Made by a program: the position numbers and the translations under genes
The notes under the pieces: generated by a model
Told to the model about the DNA's origin: nothing
Databases searched by the model: none
Seen by the model: only the letters and a program-made list of their open reading frames with translations
Shown here: positions 1-56,765 of the stretch, piece after piece
Position numbering within the stretch: the first letter of the stretch is position 1
Layout: each line of letters begins with the position of its first letter
Source: Hydrolagus colliei
Taxonomy: Eukaryota
Assembly (NCBI GenBank): GCA_035084275.1
Contig: CM068748.1
Coordinates: 9,672,001 to 9,736,000 of the forward strand
DNA length: 64,000 bases
Direction of reading: 5' to 3'

Positions 1-1217
1 AGTATAATTGCTGTACCTAAATGGTTTGCACATTCACTTTCAAATATGCAGTCAATACACCTTACAGCAAACAACTTGTCAAAATTAGAGGCAATGTATC
101 AAATGCAAGTAGTATTATATACATATGATTATTGTGATTCTCACTTGTGATGTTCACATATGAATCAGTGTACTGTAAAATGACTGGTCTTCTATCAGAT
201 TCTTCTTCCTTCCATTACCAGTCACTGTTGTGGGCAGAATGGAATTACCCATCTATTGGAATACGCACTGTACCTACAGGAATTAATGCTGAAACAGATT
301 CATTGCTGATCGCTATACATGTTTGAACTGTTGCATTGTAGGCGTGTTTAAACATAGAGATGACAGTGGCTGTTCTCCCACGTTTTTTCGATTTTGTTCT
401 TCCTCCATTACAGACACTATGCCCCACACATCTTTCCATATACTGGGCAAATGGCCAAGAAACAGTTGTGTAAATTCCCATACCAATATTGCAGTATTAC
501 TCATTCATCAGATAGCATTCTTGCTGTAGATTAAGATTTGTTGTTGGGTTTCCTCACCTTGTATTTAGGATTAAAAACTAATGCACTTCTTTTAAATTGG
601 TATAACATCTAAATTTACACTAACATTTACATATAACACAGAACTTAACTTACATCTGAATATTACGAAGTGAATGCTTCAATCCTTACATTGTCAAACG
701 ATACAATCTATATATTGATTTAGGATTATTAATTAATTACAGTAAACTGCTGATAAATTGTCAATTCAAGGAAAAGGACTCAATGATGAGTTATCCAGAT
801 TGGTGAGTTAGGCATATGTATAAATACATAAATAAATGTTATGATGATATTGACAGCATGGTGATTTAAGCGGTAGTGACAACTGAAGACAGGATCGGAT
901 TATCAGGACTTCACTGTATAATAAGAAGTTTGTTTTTGAAATTTTCTGAAGAATACCTCTCCAGACACTAAGGTTTGTGACTAGGTGTGTTTCACATACC
1001 ATTCCATACTATTACATTTTAGGACTTGCTACTGATTGTATTAATACATGCTGTTGCTGCTGCTGATCCACACACTGTCAACCCTGGCAATACTGCATCA
1101 TTCATTTACATGCCTAATAATAATCCGTCCAAAAAACCCCCTCACAATAATAAACAAAAGCAAAAGTTGCTGGGGAAACTCAGCAAGTCAGGCAGCATCC
1201 ATGAAGACAGGAAAAAC

Positions 1218-1252
1218 AGTCAACGTTTCGGGTCTACAACCCTTCGTCAGAA
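1218..1252 (-). ncRNA. Minimal type I hammerhead ribozyme motif (predicted, mirror copy)
   Basis: Reverse complement is identical to 1263-1297; 3-bp stem I GUU/GAC using flanking base 1253. Confidence 0.65.
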
Positions 1253-1262
1253 CGAAGAACCC

Positions 1263-1297
1263 TTCTGACGAAGGGTTGTAGACCCGAAACGTTGACT
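1263..1297 (+). ncRNA. Minimal type I hammerhead ribozyme motif (predicted)
   Basis: CUGACGA, stem II GGGU/ACCC, GAAAC-GUU with a loopless palindromic ACGU stem III; stem I weak. Confidence 0.65.
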
Positions 1298-1844
1298 CTT
1301 TTTCCTTTCTCCATGGATGCTGCCTGACCTGCTGAGTTTCCCAGCCACTTTTGTTTTTGTTTCAGATTCCCAGCATCTGTAGTATTTTGTGTTTTGCCCC
1401 ACAATAATAAAATTGGTCATTTCAATCCATGACTGTTTGTAGAACACTGCTGTGCATAATTGGCTGCCGCGATTCGCCCACAAATTTACAGTATATTCTG
1501 TATATTTACAGTATATTCTGTGAAGCACTTTGGGGTGAAAAGCGTTATTTCAAATGCAAGGATTATTATTATTATTAGATTGATTAATAGATCTATGACT
1601 GGGGAAAATCTTGTGAAATCGAAGGAACAATGAATATACATTCAAGAATTCCATTTCCCTTCCAGCATTACCAATGTGACATTGCATCAGTTGAGTACTC
1701 AGCCCTTCCCAAACTTCACAGTCTTGAGAGATTCAATTTACAGGAAAACTAGAGCAAGGGAGAGACTATGTATGTCATAGACTGTATACTGTGGGATACT
1801 AAACATTCAATATATTGAATACTAAACATTCAATATACTTGTAT

Positions 1845-8500: not shown

Positions 8501-8822
8501 AATAATAATAATCCAATTGCATTTGTTATAGTGCTTTTCACGTCTCCTAGACATTACAAAGCGCTTCACAGCATATACTGTGATACAATATAGTGAATGG
8601 ACTGTATATATGAGGGCGAAACGGGGCACCCAATTGTGCACAGCAGTGTTGCACAAACAGTTGTGGATTGAAATGACCAATTTATTATTGTTTCTATTTT
8701 GAGGGATTATTATCAGGCGTGTGGAGTAAGGAAAATTGCCCAAGGTTTCACCCATGCCTGGAATTGAACCCAAGTTTCTCGTTTGCAAGGTGAGCGCTCT
8801 AACCACTGAGCTACAAGGCTTC
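8501..8822 (-). mobile_element. tRNA-derived SINE (major family)
   Basis: Reverse-complement match to 2112-2424. Confidence 0.88.
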
Positions 8823-17843: not shown

Positions 17844-18241
17844 AATAATAATAATGATGATAATAATAAAGAATCCTTGCATTTGATATAGTGCCTTTTC
17901 ATGTCTCCAAGACATTTTAAAGCACTTCACAGAATATACTGTTAAGTGAATTGACTTATTTTGTGGGCGAAATGCAACAGCCAATTGCACACAGCAGTGT
18001 CCCCCAGACAATCGTGGATTGAGTGACAAGAATTATTTAAATTTTTAAAAAGTTTAAAGGGATTATTGGCACTGGAAAAGAGATCAGCCAATCAACTGAC
18101 AACTGGGTTCCTACTTACTGCTCGGTGGACAGCAGCATGCAGAATAAGGAAACATGCAACGTTTCACTCTGTTCGGGAATTGAACCCAAGTCTTCCTGCT
18201 TGCGAGGTGAGTGCTCTAACCACTGAGCTACAGCTCTCCAC
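17844..18241 (-). mobile_element. tRNA-derived SINE, long variant with extended CORE-like segment
   Basis: Same head and tail plus an extra ~70-bp internal segment (CCTACTTACTGCTCGGTGGACAG on +); a + strand tail fragment follows at 18246-18303. Confidence 0.8.
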
Positions 18242-31450: not shown

Positions 31451-31543
31451 TTGTGACAAAGGGTTGTAAGCCTGAAACATTGACTCACTTTCGTTTCTCC
31501 ATAGATGCTGCCTGAATGTTCCCAGCGATTTCTGTTTTTGTTT
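31451..31543 (+). mobile_element. Decayed Penelope-like mini-element
   Basis: GTGACAAAGGGTTGTAAGCCTGAAACATTGACTCACTTT...ATAGATGCTGCCTGA; core mutated. Confidence 0.65.
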
Positions 31544-32647
31544 AAGAACAATAAGGGTTACCTTTACATAGAATTATAAAAAAGGGATGCAGCTTCAGAG
31601 AACAAAGGATGATATATATATTTTACAAAGATTTCATCCTCACACTGTTCAAAAAATCTAAATTTAGAAATGTACAAAATGTTCCTAGATAGCAAATAAG
31701 TTAAAACTATCAGCTTTTAAAATTTTGTTTGGTTGGTTGATAATATTCCACATCTGCATGCCCTTTTATGAATAACATACACTTGAAACACATGAATTTC
31801 AATAAATTGTAGTGAAAATTAAAATGCTTGTCAGTAATTAACAAACAAAGCAACTTTCAAAGACAATAATGGCACAACATGAATTTAATGTCTATACTTG
31901 ACGTGTAATATATCCTTCCAGGCAATTATGCTGCATATGCTGCATATTAAATACAGAAATTATTCAACATGGTTTTTGGAAGAGACATTCAACTGAGGTC
32001 TTGTCTATCTAAAAAGACAATCTTACACAATTGAAATAGAGAATGGAATTTCTCCTGCTTTACTGGCCAACTGTCCTCCAGATAAAATGGTCCTTCATCT
32101 CATGGCTGCTAGTTGTTTGTTTCTTGTAAATCACTGTCTTTTACAGCATTATTACATTATGGGAAACATATTAGATTTTCTTACTTGTACAATACTTTGA
32201 AAAGTATAACTGCAAGGAGCCTATAAGCTAAAGAAAATAGCAAGTTGAAATATTAATGGAACTTAACTGGATAAGTTACTGCAATGATAATAATACTGTA
32301 TATTGTAAATGAGCATTTGAAAATGCACTAACTCCTCAATTAAACTAATCTTGCATTTGTTACATTACTGTGAAACTCATGACCTCTGAGTGAATTGTGC
32401 CATGCTATTTGGAGAATAGTTAATATCTTGCAGATAATAAAAGCACACCAGTTTACATGGTTTAGCATGACACAACAGCACAAACAAGTAATAAAGATGC
32501 TGTAATTTTTTTATTTAAAAATATTGCTATTTTGAGTAGATCTTCAGCCCTGGGCTGCAATGTCACAAGTTACAATAGCTTTTCTGCTTGGCATTCCTGT
32601 TTGCTCTGTAGTTTTTAGATTTAGTGTCATATTATTCTGCTCTAGCT

Positions 32648-37671: not shown

Positions 37672-37990
37672 AATAATAATAATCCTTACATTTGATCTAG
37701 CACTTTTCATATCTTCTGGACATCTCAAAACGTTTCACAGAATATACTGTAAAGTAAATTAACTGTATATTTGTAGGCGAGACGTGGCAGCCAATTGCAC
37801 AAAGAATGTTGTTGTTGTCCCACAAACAGTCATGGATTGAAGTGACCAATTTATTGTGGCTTTATTTCATAAGGGAATAATATCAGGCATGTGGAGTGAG
37901 GACCATTGCCTAAGGTTTCACCTCCCCAGGAATCAAACCCAGGTCCCTTGCTTGCCAGACAAGTGCTCTCCACTAAGCTAAGGACTCCAC
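37672..37990 (-). mobile_element. tRNA-derived SINE (major family)
   Basis: Reverse-complement match. Confidence 0.87.
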
Positions 37991-38575: not shown

Positions 38576-39383
38576 TTGTACTTATTTCTCACAACAAAGT
38601 GGCCCAATGTTCATAAATTATTTCTTAAAATGCATTTGCACAATAGTAAAGCTGGTGATTGTGTTGACATTAATTGGGAGAATAGGTGATACAATGACTC
38701 AACTCAGTTATATTGCTGTGGCCGTCATAAGTTCTGGAACAGAGTAAATAAAAGCTCACTTTAAATTTGGGAATGCTGTACCAATGCTAGATGTGTAACA
38801 AAACACAAATATAATTCCCCATCACTAAAGTTGAATAATAAGCAGAAATATTTACTGAAATGTATTTTCTTAGCATTTGGGAATTTGGCAAATTCAGTCC
38901 GAATTTTGAAGGCAATGTTCTGTAAATTGTTTTTAAAAACTACAGACCCATTCATCAAAGATTAGGCTGAATTCAACAATTTGTCAAATTATGGATGCTG
39001 TAAAATGTTAAATAGTGAAAATCTAGACCCAGGTTGAATGTCTTCTCCAGTATTTCCAAGAATCTTCAAGAATGTGACTCTTATCCAGCTTTGTGGTGTA
39101 TTATATGGCAGAATAGGTGATCCATTGCATGGATGCTGTGAGGGAAGGTGAGGAAAGAGAAGTCAATGAATCTGGTCATTCGATTCATTGAAGACAATTT
39201 TCAAAATATTTAATCAAGGATACATATAAAAGAGCAAGTGAGACACTAATAGCTGATAGCTATTTCAACAGCTATTCATTTCAGGATAGTCTGACATTAT
39301 TATACTTTGATAATGCCTACAGGTCAAAATCGACAACAACAATAAAATTACATTTATAGAGCACTTTTCACATCGGGAGGACA

Positions 39384-39698
39384 CTGTAGCTCAGTGGTTA
39401 GAGCACTCGCCTTACAAGCGTGAGACCTGTGTTTCGAATCCAGTCAGGTGAGTGTGAAACCTTGGGCAAGTTTCCTTACTCCACATGCCTAATAATAATC
39501 CCTCCGAACAAAAAGCAATAATAAATTGAACATTTTCAATCCATGGCTGTTTGTGGGTCACTGCTGTACGCAATTGGCTGCCGCGTTTCACCAACAAATA
39601 TACAGTCAATTCACTTTACAGTATATTCCGTGAAGTGCTTTAAGATGTCTAGAAGACAAGAAAAGCGCTATATCAAATGCAAGGATTATTATTATTAT
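39384..39698 (+). mobile_element. tRNA-derived SINE inserted in an L2 tail (39333-39720, minus strand)
   Basis: The L2 tail CATCGGGAGGAC...CCCAAGGCGCTG is split by the SINE. Confidence 0.87.
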
Positions 39699-48719: not shown

Positions 48720-49218
48720 TAATAATAATCCTTGCTTTTCATATAGCACATTTCACATCACATGGACGTTTCAAAGCGTTTCACAGGATTTACTGTAAAG
48801 TATAATGACTGTTCTGATGAAGGGTCGTGGACCCGAAACGTTGACTCACTTTTCTTTTCTCCATAGATGCTGCCTGACCTGCTGAGTGTTCCCAGCAATT
48901 TCTGTTTTTTAATGACTGTGTATTTTGCAAGTGGACATAGCAGCCAATTTGCATCCAGTGTCACACAAACAACCGTGAAATAAATGATAATTTTATTTGG
49001 AGAATTATTTGTCAGGTATCTTGGAGAAATTGCTTCGGTTTTCAATTAGCACCACAGGTTCTTTAATGTCCACCTGAACTGCCAGACATTACCTTGGTTT
49101 GTCTCATTTGAAGGACAACATCTCAAGCAACGCAGCACTATGTGATCTCAAAGTCCTGATGTGGGGTTTGAATTCATAACCTTCTGACTCAGAGGCGAGA
49201 TACAACCAAGCGAGTCAT
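48720..49218 (-). mobile_element. Deu-domain SINE hosting a Penelope-like insert
   Basis: Tail, Deu-like TCTTTAATGTCCACCTGAAC, head AACCTTCTGACTCAGAGGCGAG. Confidence 0.72.
48813..48909 (+). mobile_element. Penelope-like mini-element, single arm with intact hammerhead core
   Basis: CTGATGAAGGGTCGTGGACCCGAAACGTTGAC plus the same downstream sequence as the 1.3-kb copy; 10-bp TSD TAATGACTGT (48803-48812 / 48910-48919). Confidence 0.8.
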
Positions 49219-49345: not shown

Positions 49346-49659
49346 ATAATAATAATAATCCTTGCATTTGATATAAAGTTTTTCATGACTTCTAGACGCC
49401 TCAAAGCGCTTCATAGAATATACTGGAAAGTGAATTGACTGTATATTTATGGACGAAATGTGGCAGGCAATTGCGCACAGCAGTATCCCACAAACAGTCG
49501 TGGATTAAATTGACCAATTCTATTATTTTTTGGGGAGGGATTATTATCGGGCGTTTGGAGTAAGGAAACTTATCCAGTTTCACCCTCATCTGCCTGGATT
49601 CGAACACAGGTCTCACGCTTGTAAGGCGAATGCTCTAACCACAAAGCTACAGGACTCCA
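49346..49659 (-). mobile_element. tRNA-derived SINE (major family)
   Basis: Reverse-complement match. Confidence 0.9.
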
Positions 49660-56316: not shown

Positions 56317-56765
56317 AACAATAATAATCCTTGCATTTGATAAGAGCGCTTTTCACGTCCTCTAGACATCTCAAAGAGGTTCACAAAATACACTGTGAAG
56401 CAAATTGACTGTAACACAAACACAAAATACTGCAGATGTTGGAAATCTGAAACAAAACCAGAAACCGCGTTCGAGGAAAGGGTCATGGACCTGAAACTGC
56501 ATTCAGATGGAAGGAAAGTGGACCTGAAATGTTGACTCACTTTCCAATTTCTCCATAGATGCTGCTTGACTTGCTGAGTGTTCCCAGCGATTTTCTGTTT
56601 ATATTAGCGAATTGACTGCATATTTGTAAGGGAAACACTGCAGCCAATTGAGCGCAACAGTGTCCCACACACAGCCTTGAATTGAAAATGACCGAAATAT
56701 GATTTATTTTTGGAGGGATTATTATCAGACGAGTGGAGTAAGGAAACCTACCCAAGGTTTCGCCG
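56317..56765 (-). mobile_element. 5'-truncated SINE hosting a Penelope-like insert
   Basis: Tail and body on either side of the insert; an L2 tail (+) follows at 56770-56869. Confidence 0.8.
56414..56605 (+). mobile_element. Penelope-like mini-element with partial inverted arm and two decayed hammerhead-like units
   Basis: Shares GTTGACTCACTTT...CTCCATAGATGCTGC...TTCCCAGC; imperfect 15-bp TSD 56399-56413 / 56606-56620. Confidence 0.72.

What the first reader, a model, noticed from the sequence alone, without database searches (positions are those of the whole stretch)
1143..1411. Palindromic mini-retroelement with a hammerhead ribozyme core on each strand
Seen: ~100-bp inverted arms (1152-1252 / 1263-1362) with a 10-nt spacer. 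The inner 35 bp are identical between arms and read TTCTGACGAAGGGTTGTAGACCCGAAACGTTGACT, i.e. CUGANGA, stem II, then GAAAC/GUU. The outer ~65 bp carry about 7 differences. The unit sits in a SINE, flanked by a 9-12 bp duplication (CACAATAATAAA). Known: Penelope-like elements carry minimal type I hammerheads whose loopless palindromic stem III (ACGU) forms by dimerisation, and they often produce inverted terminal repeats. Inference: this is a non-coding ribozyme-bearing mobile unit. Transcription in either direction yields one core, which competes with a long dsRNA hairpin. The extra identity of the inner part may reflect conversion or selection.
Basis: partly seen in the sequence, partly recalled or inferred. 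Interest (0 to 1): 0.72.

Follow-up and report, generated by a model that had tools for sequence, protein, structure and literature searches.

The report
Twin-primed Penelope retroelement palindrome stub
This 240-base mirror-image insertion is two back-to-back stubs of the ribozyme-bearing end of a common, decayed Penelope-type jumping gene; it was likely built once, at this site, by copying the element's RNA onto both cut DNA strands, so it is a known footprint rather than a new mobile ribozyme element.

Summary
The palindrome, the hammerhead-like cores and the target duplication are real. The arm is the terminal repeat (pLTR) of a ~3.1-kb Penelope-like element (RT, Cys linker, GIY-YIG) with thousands of copies; no intact ORF was found among the copies scored. 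About half of sampled insertions are two-armed. Of 100 compact pairs, 94 join a tailed to a tail-less arm and none has two tails. Junctions differ, either arm can be longer, and arms share subfamily alleles. So the palindrome is likely made afresh at each insertion by priming both target strands; it does not move as a unit. Extra inner identity is chance: across the family the inner part is less identical (11% vs 4% mismatch), and the core decays at CpGs. 5' ends pile up just before the hammerhead, not at its cut site, so the template was likely uncut RNA. The architecture is published (inverted pLTR, tail, TSD), and the scan noted it before in other genomes (191 notes, at least 29 genomes). 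The tail rule and end map are modest mechanistic additions.

The parts
1140..1154 (.). Left target-site duplication (15 bp, 1 mismatch to the right copy; 12-bp exact core 1143-1154). Its last three A's also fit the arm end (microhomology).
   Evidence: (D15); single copy of the site in the paralogous SINE
1155..1253 (-). Tail-less inverted arm: 5'-truncated copy of the element's pLTR, from -3 to +95 (0 = C of CUGA)
1219..1253 (-). Minimal type I hammerhead motif, stem I reduced to 3 bp; predicted cut after 1222
   Evidence: sequence; definition from PMC4209133; cleavage not tested
1254..1262 (.). Junction insert made of snippets templated from the two arms (repair-type scar, inferred)
   Evidence: 15 of 31 inserts of >=7 nt carry a 7-mer of their own arms; shuffled inserts 14.7%
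1263..1362 (+). Tailed arm, body: 5'-truncated pLTR copy starting at -2
1263..1295 (+). Minimal type I hammerhead motif, stem I reduced to 2 bp; predicted cut after 1293
   Evidence: sequence; cleavage not tested
1363..1396 (+). 34-nt PLE 'tail' (stretch between the two inferred reverse-transcription start sites); continues into the next unit's 5' region in near-full-length copies
   Evidence: PMC11167929
1397..1411 (.). Right target-site duplication
1021..1572 (+). Host tRNA-derived SINE, interrupted by the insertion (bounds approximate)
   Evidence: alignment to the SINE copy at about 2140-2430; tRNA-like heads elsewhere in the window
48812..48909 (+). Single tail-less arm of the older subfamily with a short duplication
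31451..31547 (+). Decayed single tail-less arm
56418..56600 (.). Older two-armed copy: inverted tail piece (56418-56463) plus a forward tail-less arm (56510-56600)

Best explanation
The 1155-1396 insert is a pair of short, head-to-head copies of the terminal repeat of an endonuclease-positive Penelope-like retroelement with a Neptune-type Cys linker, likely written at this site in one insertion event by reverse transcription primed from both nicked target strands. Shown: the arm is the element's pLTR; two-armed copies nearly always join one tailed and one tail-less arm between 11-17-bp duplications; junctions differ between sites; the two arms share subfamily alleles; 5' ends pile up 0-6 nt before the hammerhead and not at its cut site. 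Inferred: the GIY-YIG domain cuts both strands about 14 bp apart. One 3' end primes at the U-rich site near +132 and the other at the similar U-rich site near +97, on the same RNA or on RNAs from the same source. Both cDNAs stop early, most often at -6..+1, likely the RNA's 5' end, on a template the ribozyme had not cut. Host end-joining then seals the two cDNA ends with microhomology or templated snippets. After insertion the copy decays neutrally. This copy's ribozymes have lost part of stem I and are predicted to be inactive or weak.
For: Arm lies 115-472 nt downstream of GIY-YIG on the same strand in 23 of 25 loci. RT PF00078 E 4.4e-6 and GIY-YIG E 0.0022. Near-full-length copies L299 and L302 have the arm at both ends in direct orientation, with TSDs. 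Long copies L161 and L077 carry the same inverted partner. Two-armed: 45 of 83 and 40 of 87 loci chosen without regard to palindromy. In 100 compact pairs: 94 tailed + tail-less, 0 two-tailed, 2 tail-less on both sides, 4 intermediate. TSD >=10 nt in 78 of 100 against 0.9% of shuffled flank pairs, mode 14. Among 66 pairs the tail-less arm reaches >=10 nt further 5' in 26 and the tailed arm in 14; 5 tailed arms are tail only. Allele concordance 58/63 at +87 (53% expected), 29/31 at +59, 31/32 at +58, 45/57 at +34. 5' ends: 35 of 112 arms at -6..+1; 4 at +27..+31 against 5.1 expected. In vitro, an anole PLE cleaves and extends both strands, starts at two adjacent internal sites, and uses uncut RNA (PMC11167929).
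Against: Both Pfam scores are under the curated cut-offs (27 vs 29.6 and 18.7 vs 22.6 bits), and Rfam has no hammerhead hit. PMC11167929 saw no strand preference between the two start sites in vitro, which alone would predict two-tailed and tail-less pairs too. Some pairs differ at both linked sites +58/+59 (L016, L030, L060), which a single template does not explain without later ectopic conversion. Concordance at +42, -1 and +15 was not significant. The RNA-start reading of the -6..+1 pile-up is untested: a cap-G signature was inconclusive and polyA reads showed no place where many molecules begin. The three longest copies start at +38, +56 and +84 of the upstream repeat, which also fits ribozyme-cut RNA (n = 3). 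Sampling was mostly from the first listed matches on contig C1.
Confidence: 0.8

Rival explanations
1. The palindrome is a self-contained non-autonomous element (MITE- or retrozyme-like) copied as one unit from palindromic masters, with its two ribozymes kept by selection or conversion.
For: All 40 scored candidates of the palindromic query are near-full-length palindromes 86-100% identical to it. Four junction signatures recur (12 of 100 pairs). One head-to-head junction of the family is present in polyA RNA (45 reads, 27 starts).
Against: ranks by likeness to a palindrome. The recurring junctions carry no insert, so microhomology can recreate them. 92 of 100 junction signatures are distinct. 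Arm lengths vary continuously from tail-only to over 1.3 kb. Inner parts are less, not more, alike, and private variants are rarely shared (12/197).
Confidence: 0.05
2. Snap-back self-priming: one cDNA (or an antisense template) folds back and copies itself, making the second arm; the endonuclease then resolves the hairpin, leaving the tail on one side (PMC3846280, PMC8557442).
For: Explains allele concordance and the lack of two-tailed pairs. Many junction inserts are templated from the arms.
Against: A fold-back copy cannot reach further 5' than its template. The tail-less arm does so in 26 of 66 pairs, and 5 tailed arms are tail only; the tailed arm cannot be copied from a tail-less one (L161, L077).
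Confidence: 0.08
3. Same twin priming, but the -6..+1 pile-up marks where the RT loses hold of the RNA once it has copied through a protein-bound hammerhead region, not a transcription start; the short arms come from the 3' repeat of long RNAs.
For: The anole protein's binding site is proposed to lie in the region that holds the hammerhead, and cleavage there is protein-assisted (PMC11167929). 23 of 112 arms do pass -6. No RNA start was seen.
Against: The stop is sharp (about 8-fold the rate just downstream) and falls at an initiator-like CCAGT (motif recalled). Read-through copies are expected anyway from the 3' repeat. Single-cell polyA reads are not made to show 5' ends.
Confidence: 0.3

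Closest known systems
Insertion units of EN+ Penelope-like elements with inverted 5'-truncated pLTR, 30-40-bp tail at one end and TSD (Pen2a_Av and others, PMC3846280; general scheme in PMC8557442; passages read)
   Same: Head-to-head inverted repeat, 34-nt tail on one side only, TSD, RT + C-terminal GIY-YIG parent, hammerhead in the pLTR
   Different: Here both arms are often cut to about 100-135 nt, so the unit looks like a mini-palindrome; TSD mode is 14 bp against 8-10 bp quoted for Adineta copies; the tail asymmetry is near-absolute in two-armed copies (0 of 100 two-tailed)
Poseidon element of Anolis (PAc), two internal RT start sites (PMC11167929; parts 1-2 of 4 read)
   Same: Two start sites about 35 nt apart define the tail; both strands are cut and extended; uncut RNA is the template; AT-rich targets (TSDs here 69% AT)
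   Different: This family has the Neptune-type Cys linker; in PAc the ORF starts inside the hammerhead, whereas here a 5' region follows the tail before the long coding frame; PAc showed no strand preference of start sites in vitro
Minimal type I hammerheads of metazoan PLEs (PMC4209133; parts 1-2 of 4 read)
   Same: CUGANGA, unpaired base before stem II, G-C closing pair, palindromic loopless helix III, 4-bp helix I in less truncated copies; the paper also notes pairs 100-700 bp apart on opposite strands
   Different: Helix II is 5 bp (7-8 bp quoted for Schistosoma); this copy's helix I is truncated; cleavage untested
Animal non-LTR retrozymes (10.64898/2026.07.22.740005; part 1 of 5 and passages read, supplements not seen)
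   Same: Non-coding, hammerhead-bearing, PLE-derived pLTR sequence
   Different: Retrozymes are defined by head-to-tail tandem units with two consecutive hammerheads; this is head-to-head and dispersed
L1 twin priming (recalled; papers seen only in the search listing)
   Same: Two primers from the two target strands give a 5' inversion
   Different: In L1 the two segments are adjacent parts of the RNA (recalled); here the same about 100 nt is usually copied twice, and only the 5 tail-only cases look like the L1 geometry

Membership tests
EN+ Penelope-like element | Parent ORF with RT followed by C-terminal GIY-YIG endonuclease, linked to the arm | tested here: met
   L050, L098, L100 translations; Pfam RVT_1 E 4.4e-6 and GIY-YIG E 0.0022, both under the curated cut-off; arm downstream in 23 of 25 loci; relatives carry the same domains
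EN+ Penelope-like element | pLTR: same terminal repeat upstream and downstream of the ORF in direct orientation | tested here: met
   L299, L302, L297
EN+ Penelope-like element | Inverted 5'-truncated copy, 30-40-bp tail at one end, TSD | tested here: met
Neptune clade | CX2-5CxxC Zn-finger-like linker between RT and EN (PMC8557442) | tested here: met
   C-X4-C-X2-C before the GIY-YIG domain in L098, L100, L101; the paper says Nematis has it too
Neptune clade | RT phylogeny groups with Neptune reference elements | not tested
   No named reference PLE proteins were held; best named relatives are uncharacterised shark and ray proteins
Minimal type I hammerhead | Core CUGANGA / GAAA / NUH with helix II and palindromic 15.2-16.2 positions | tested here: met
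   sequence; 2528 genome matches to a core descriptor against 4 for the reversed control
Minimal type I hammerhead | Helix I of 4-5 bp | tested here: not met
   2 bp (+ arm) and 3 bp (- arm) in this copy; 4 bp in L072 and L106
Minimal type I hammerhead | Match to an Rfam hammerhead model | tested here: not met
   none at the gathering score or at E<=10
Minimal type I hammerhead | Covariation in helix II | tested here: inconclusive
   Two subfamilies differ by U-G versus C-G at the loop-closing pair and in the loop; one-sided change only (100 listed matches read by eye)
Minimal type I hammerhead | Self-cleavage as a dimer | not testable with these tools
   No genomic trace either: 5' ends are not enriched at the cut site
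Non-LTR retrozyme | Head-to-tail tandem units with two consecutive hammerheads | tested here: not met
   Arms are head-to-head; the classes found in 87 and 83 loci were single or inverted
MITE-like palindromic unit | Copies share one internal sequence and symmetrical fixed ends | tested here: not met
   92 distinct junctions in 100 pairs; one-sided tail; variable arm lengths

The most novel reading that the evidence does not exclude
One Penelope RNP loads its two protomers at two fixed U-rich sites 35 nt apart on an uncut RNA that begins about 4 nt before the hammerhead, and primes both target strands in a coupled way. This one rule would explain the tail, the inverted pLTR and the short palindromes. 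Intact solo arms with their own internal promoter could then act as SINE-like masters, and the rare pairs with mismatched subfamily alleles would record events in which two RNAs, perhaps paired through the palindromic stem III, served as templates.
Probability: 0.35. Interest if true: 0.55.

Novelty: new member of a known kind. Interest (0 to 1): 0.3.

Why it matters
As an object it is ordinary: one of thousands of decayed PLE stubs in this genome. Its use is as a natural data set on a retrotransposition mechanism that is still open. The copies argue for coupled priming from both target strands at two sites (0 of 100 two-tailed), against snap-back copying, and for an uncut template, which extends the in vitro anole results to a Neptune-type family in vivo. 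About half of the insertions also plant a 100-bp perfect hairpin, a possible source of dsRNA when host transcripts run through them (untested).

Tried and rejected
Rfam scans: no hammerhead hit. A genome search with Pfam GIY-YIG found a different family (783-aa ORF, near contig ends) with no match to the arm, so it is not the partner. A search with a further Pfam accession could not be run because the library lacks it. Search for an intact parent: among 154 RT matches (150 of 629 candidates scored) no frame of this family exceeded 603 aa; six long copies checked had stop-free frames of 307-517 aa. Cap-G or shared first-exon signature at 5' ends: no shared upstream sequence in 36 single arms; G excess inconclusive. 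The comparison of read-through between single and two-armed copies is biased by the compact-pair definition and was not used. Sequencing runs: no RNA holder of this locus listed. Contigs of four runs laid at 80% were too thin over stem II to test covariation. PolyA reads of run X21 (organism not known to be this one) cover the family arm on both strands with no start or end pile-up, and the A>G sites are also in the DNA-like runs, so no editing is shown. No recognisable host ORF by eye in window 100-1100; not scanned further. Look-up of earlier findings by sequence returned nothing. Literature searches listed no paper on this family or on a counted tail rule; the library lacks most subscription papers and Repbase, and bioRxiv supplements were not seen, so this does not show absence from print.

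Full report
Observation. Arms 1152-1252 and 1263-1362 align over 101 columns with 6 mismatches and 1 indel, none in the inner 35. The hairpin folds at -171.1 kcal/mol, z -20.5. Each arm carries CUGACGA, an unpaired A, a 5-bp stem II and GAAAC-GU-U, the layout of the minimal type I hammerheads of metazoan Penelope-like elements (PLEs) in PMC4209133 (parts 1-2 of 4 read). Rfam has no hammerhead hit at either threshold. The insert interrupts a tRNA-derived SINE whose paralogue has the site once. The duplication is 15 bp with one mismatch. The right arm carries 34 extra bases (1363-1396). Below, position 0 is the C of CUGA (window 1265 on +, 1250 on -); the predicted cut is after +28, the tail-less end is near +97 and the tail end near +132.

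It is a large family. The palindromic query gave 2142 first-look candidates in the 1.0-Gb own genome; all 40 scored are near-full-length palindromes. The 30 fetched copies share the right end and a left end about 35 nt shorter, each with its own duplication and centre (two of them, L005 and L011, share flanks and are one duplicated site). Exact patterns count 514 copies of the 34-nt core, 2319 of a 27-nt mid-arm stretch and 2528 of a core descriptor, against 4 for the reversed control.

The arm is the terminal repeat of a PLE. Walking 5' from L050 led to a GIY-YIG frame. Of the 25 best loci for that protein, 23 have the arm on the same strand 115-472 nt downstream, one has it only on the opposite strand and one lacks it. 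L098 carries an RT (PF00078, E 4.4e-6) and a GIY-YIG domain (E 0.0022), both under Pfam's cut-offs, with a C-X4-C-X2-C linker that PMC8557442 (passages) gives for Neptune and Nematis. The best named relatives are shark and ray proteins at 59-66% identity, so the host is likely a cartilaginous fish (inference). Of 20 long loci, L299, L302 and L297 begin inside an upstream arm (+38, +56, +84) and run through the tail into a shared 5' region and the ORF to a downstream arm; L299 and L302 have TSDs. The unit is about 3.1 kb and the arm is its pLTR. No intact ORF was seen.

The palindrome is made at each insertion. I sampled loci by pattern, without regard to palindromy: set A, 87 loci holding 90 of the first 100 listed core matches; set B, 83 loci holding the first 100 listed mid-arm matches (the sets share 10 insertions). 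40 of 87 and 45 of 83 have an adjacent inverted arm. After dropping 10 duplicate loci, 187 loci gave 100 compact pairs (28 from the similarity-ranked set, 72 from A and B): 94 tailed + tail-less, 0 two-tailed, 2 tail-less on both sides, 4 with a partial or interrupted tail. TSDs of >=10 nt flank 78 of 100 (shuffled flank pairs 0.9%), mode 14. 92 of 100 junction signatures are distinct, and the recurring ones have no insert. 15 of 31 inserts of >=7 nt hold a 7-mer of their own arms (shuffled 14.7%), as the window's does. In 66 pairs of A and B the tail-less arm reaches at least 10 nt further 5' in 26 and the tailed arm in 14, and 5 tailed arms are tail only. So in those 26 pairs neither arm can be a fold-back copy of the other, which counts against the self-priming reading in PMC3846280 (passages). 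The arms share subfamily alleles far above chance at +87 (58/63 vs 53%), +59 (29/31), +58 (31/32) and +34 (45/57), weakly at +82, and not significantly at +42, -1 and +15. Three pairs differ at both +58 and +59. This fits one RNA or one source for most events and a second template, or later ectopic conversion, for a few. PMC11167929 (parts 1-2 of 4) shows an anole PLE cutting and extending both strands and starting at two internal sites that define the tail. It saw no strand preference, so the coupling seen here goes beyond it.

No conversion or selection on the inserted ribozymes. In set B the inner 34 nt mismatch between arms at 66/598 (11.0%), the outer part at 82/1997 (4.1%); the similarity-ranked set gives 9.8% against 4.6%. 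Only 2 of 43 pairs are identical inside, the window's being one; its pattern has P = 0.045 by chance. Private variants are shared by both arms in 12 of 197 sites. Core CpGs diverge at 51/333, non-CpG core at 10/607, like flanking sequence at 28/1475; 22 of 57 arms keep an intact core. In this copy stem I is 2 and 3 bp against 4 bp in less truncated copies, and the lowest-energy folds of the single arms are not the hammerhead fold (-9.9 and -9.7 against -3.0 and -6.4 kcal/mol).

Where the copies stop. Of 112 arms in 73 set-B loci, 35 end at -6..+1, 50 at +2..+50, 23 further upstream and 4 beyond +50; the stop rate at -6..+1 is about 8 times that just downstream (binomial p 9e-10). Only 4 end at +27..+31, where 5.1 are expected. 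So short copies came from uncut RNA, as in the anole assay. I read the pile-up as the RNA's 5' end (an initiator-like CCAGT lies there; motif recalled), with RT drop-off past a protein-bound hammerhead as the rival. A cap signature was inconclusive and polyA reads showed no start. The three longest copies start downstream of the cut site, so cleavage of long RNAs is not excluded.

Comparison and verdict. Inverted 5'-truncated pLTR, one-sided 30-40-bp tail and TSD are the published architecture of EN+ PLEs. It is not a retrozyme as defined in 10.64898/2026.07.22.740005 (part 1 of 5 and passages), which needs tandem units. Earlier notes of this scan report the same kind of object in at least 29 genomes; they agree with a reading I had recorded before seeing them, and one of them claims an end signal at the cut site that is absent here. 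The finding is a new member of a known kind, with some value as evidence on PLE insertion. Interest 0.3.

Noticed in passing
L031-L045 (e.g. G000:C38:26699-65664, C21:18685835-18705966, C2:137375030, C20:20457): A second PLE-like family with many identical stop-free 783-aa frames (GIY-YIG; RT 37% identical to this family's), in tandem arrays 5.5-6.6 kb apart, mostly near contig ends, followed by degenerate telomere-like repeats; no hammerhead core by a simple pattern in three loci. Possibly an active, telomere-associated EN+ PLE.
   Followed up: partly
window 1323-1366: The arm holds a branch-point-like CTGAC, a pyrimidine tract and a CAG at about +101, a splice-acceptor-like signal (consensus recalled) next to the tail-less end; 1309-1338 is also the best-covered part in four runs labelled as four different organisms.
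   Followed up: no
arm positions +90..+98 and +125..+135 (window about 1354-1362 and 1389-1396): Both inferred priming sites lie in similar T-rich motifs, and TSDs begin with T at both nicks in about half of cases (33 and 27 of 58), suggesting short A:U pairing of primer and RNA.
   Followed up: partly
L016, L030, L060: Two-armed copies whose arms differ at both linked subfamily sites +58/+59: two templates or ectopic conversion.
   Followed up: partly
arm +8..+19 (stem II): Non-CpG stem II positions diverge more (28/592) than the core or the nearest flank, with several G>A changes; cause unknown.
   Followed up: no
G000:C38:4151392-4331068 and C30:3238051-3710175: Fragments of this family's RT recur at intervals of about 22-33 kb (C38) and about 100 kb (C30), likely segmental tandem duplications.
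   Followed up: no
window 8749-8820, 18168-18233, 37926-37980, 39380-39434, 49590-49652: tRNA-like Rfam hits that look like SINE heads; the host SINE's body resembles the Deu domain (recalled, not tested).
   Followed up: no
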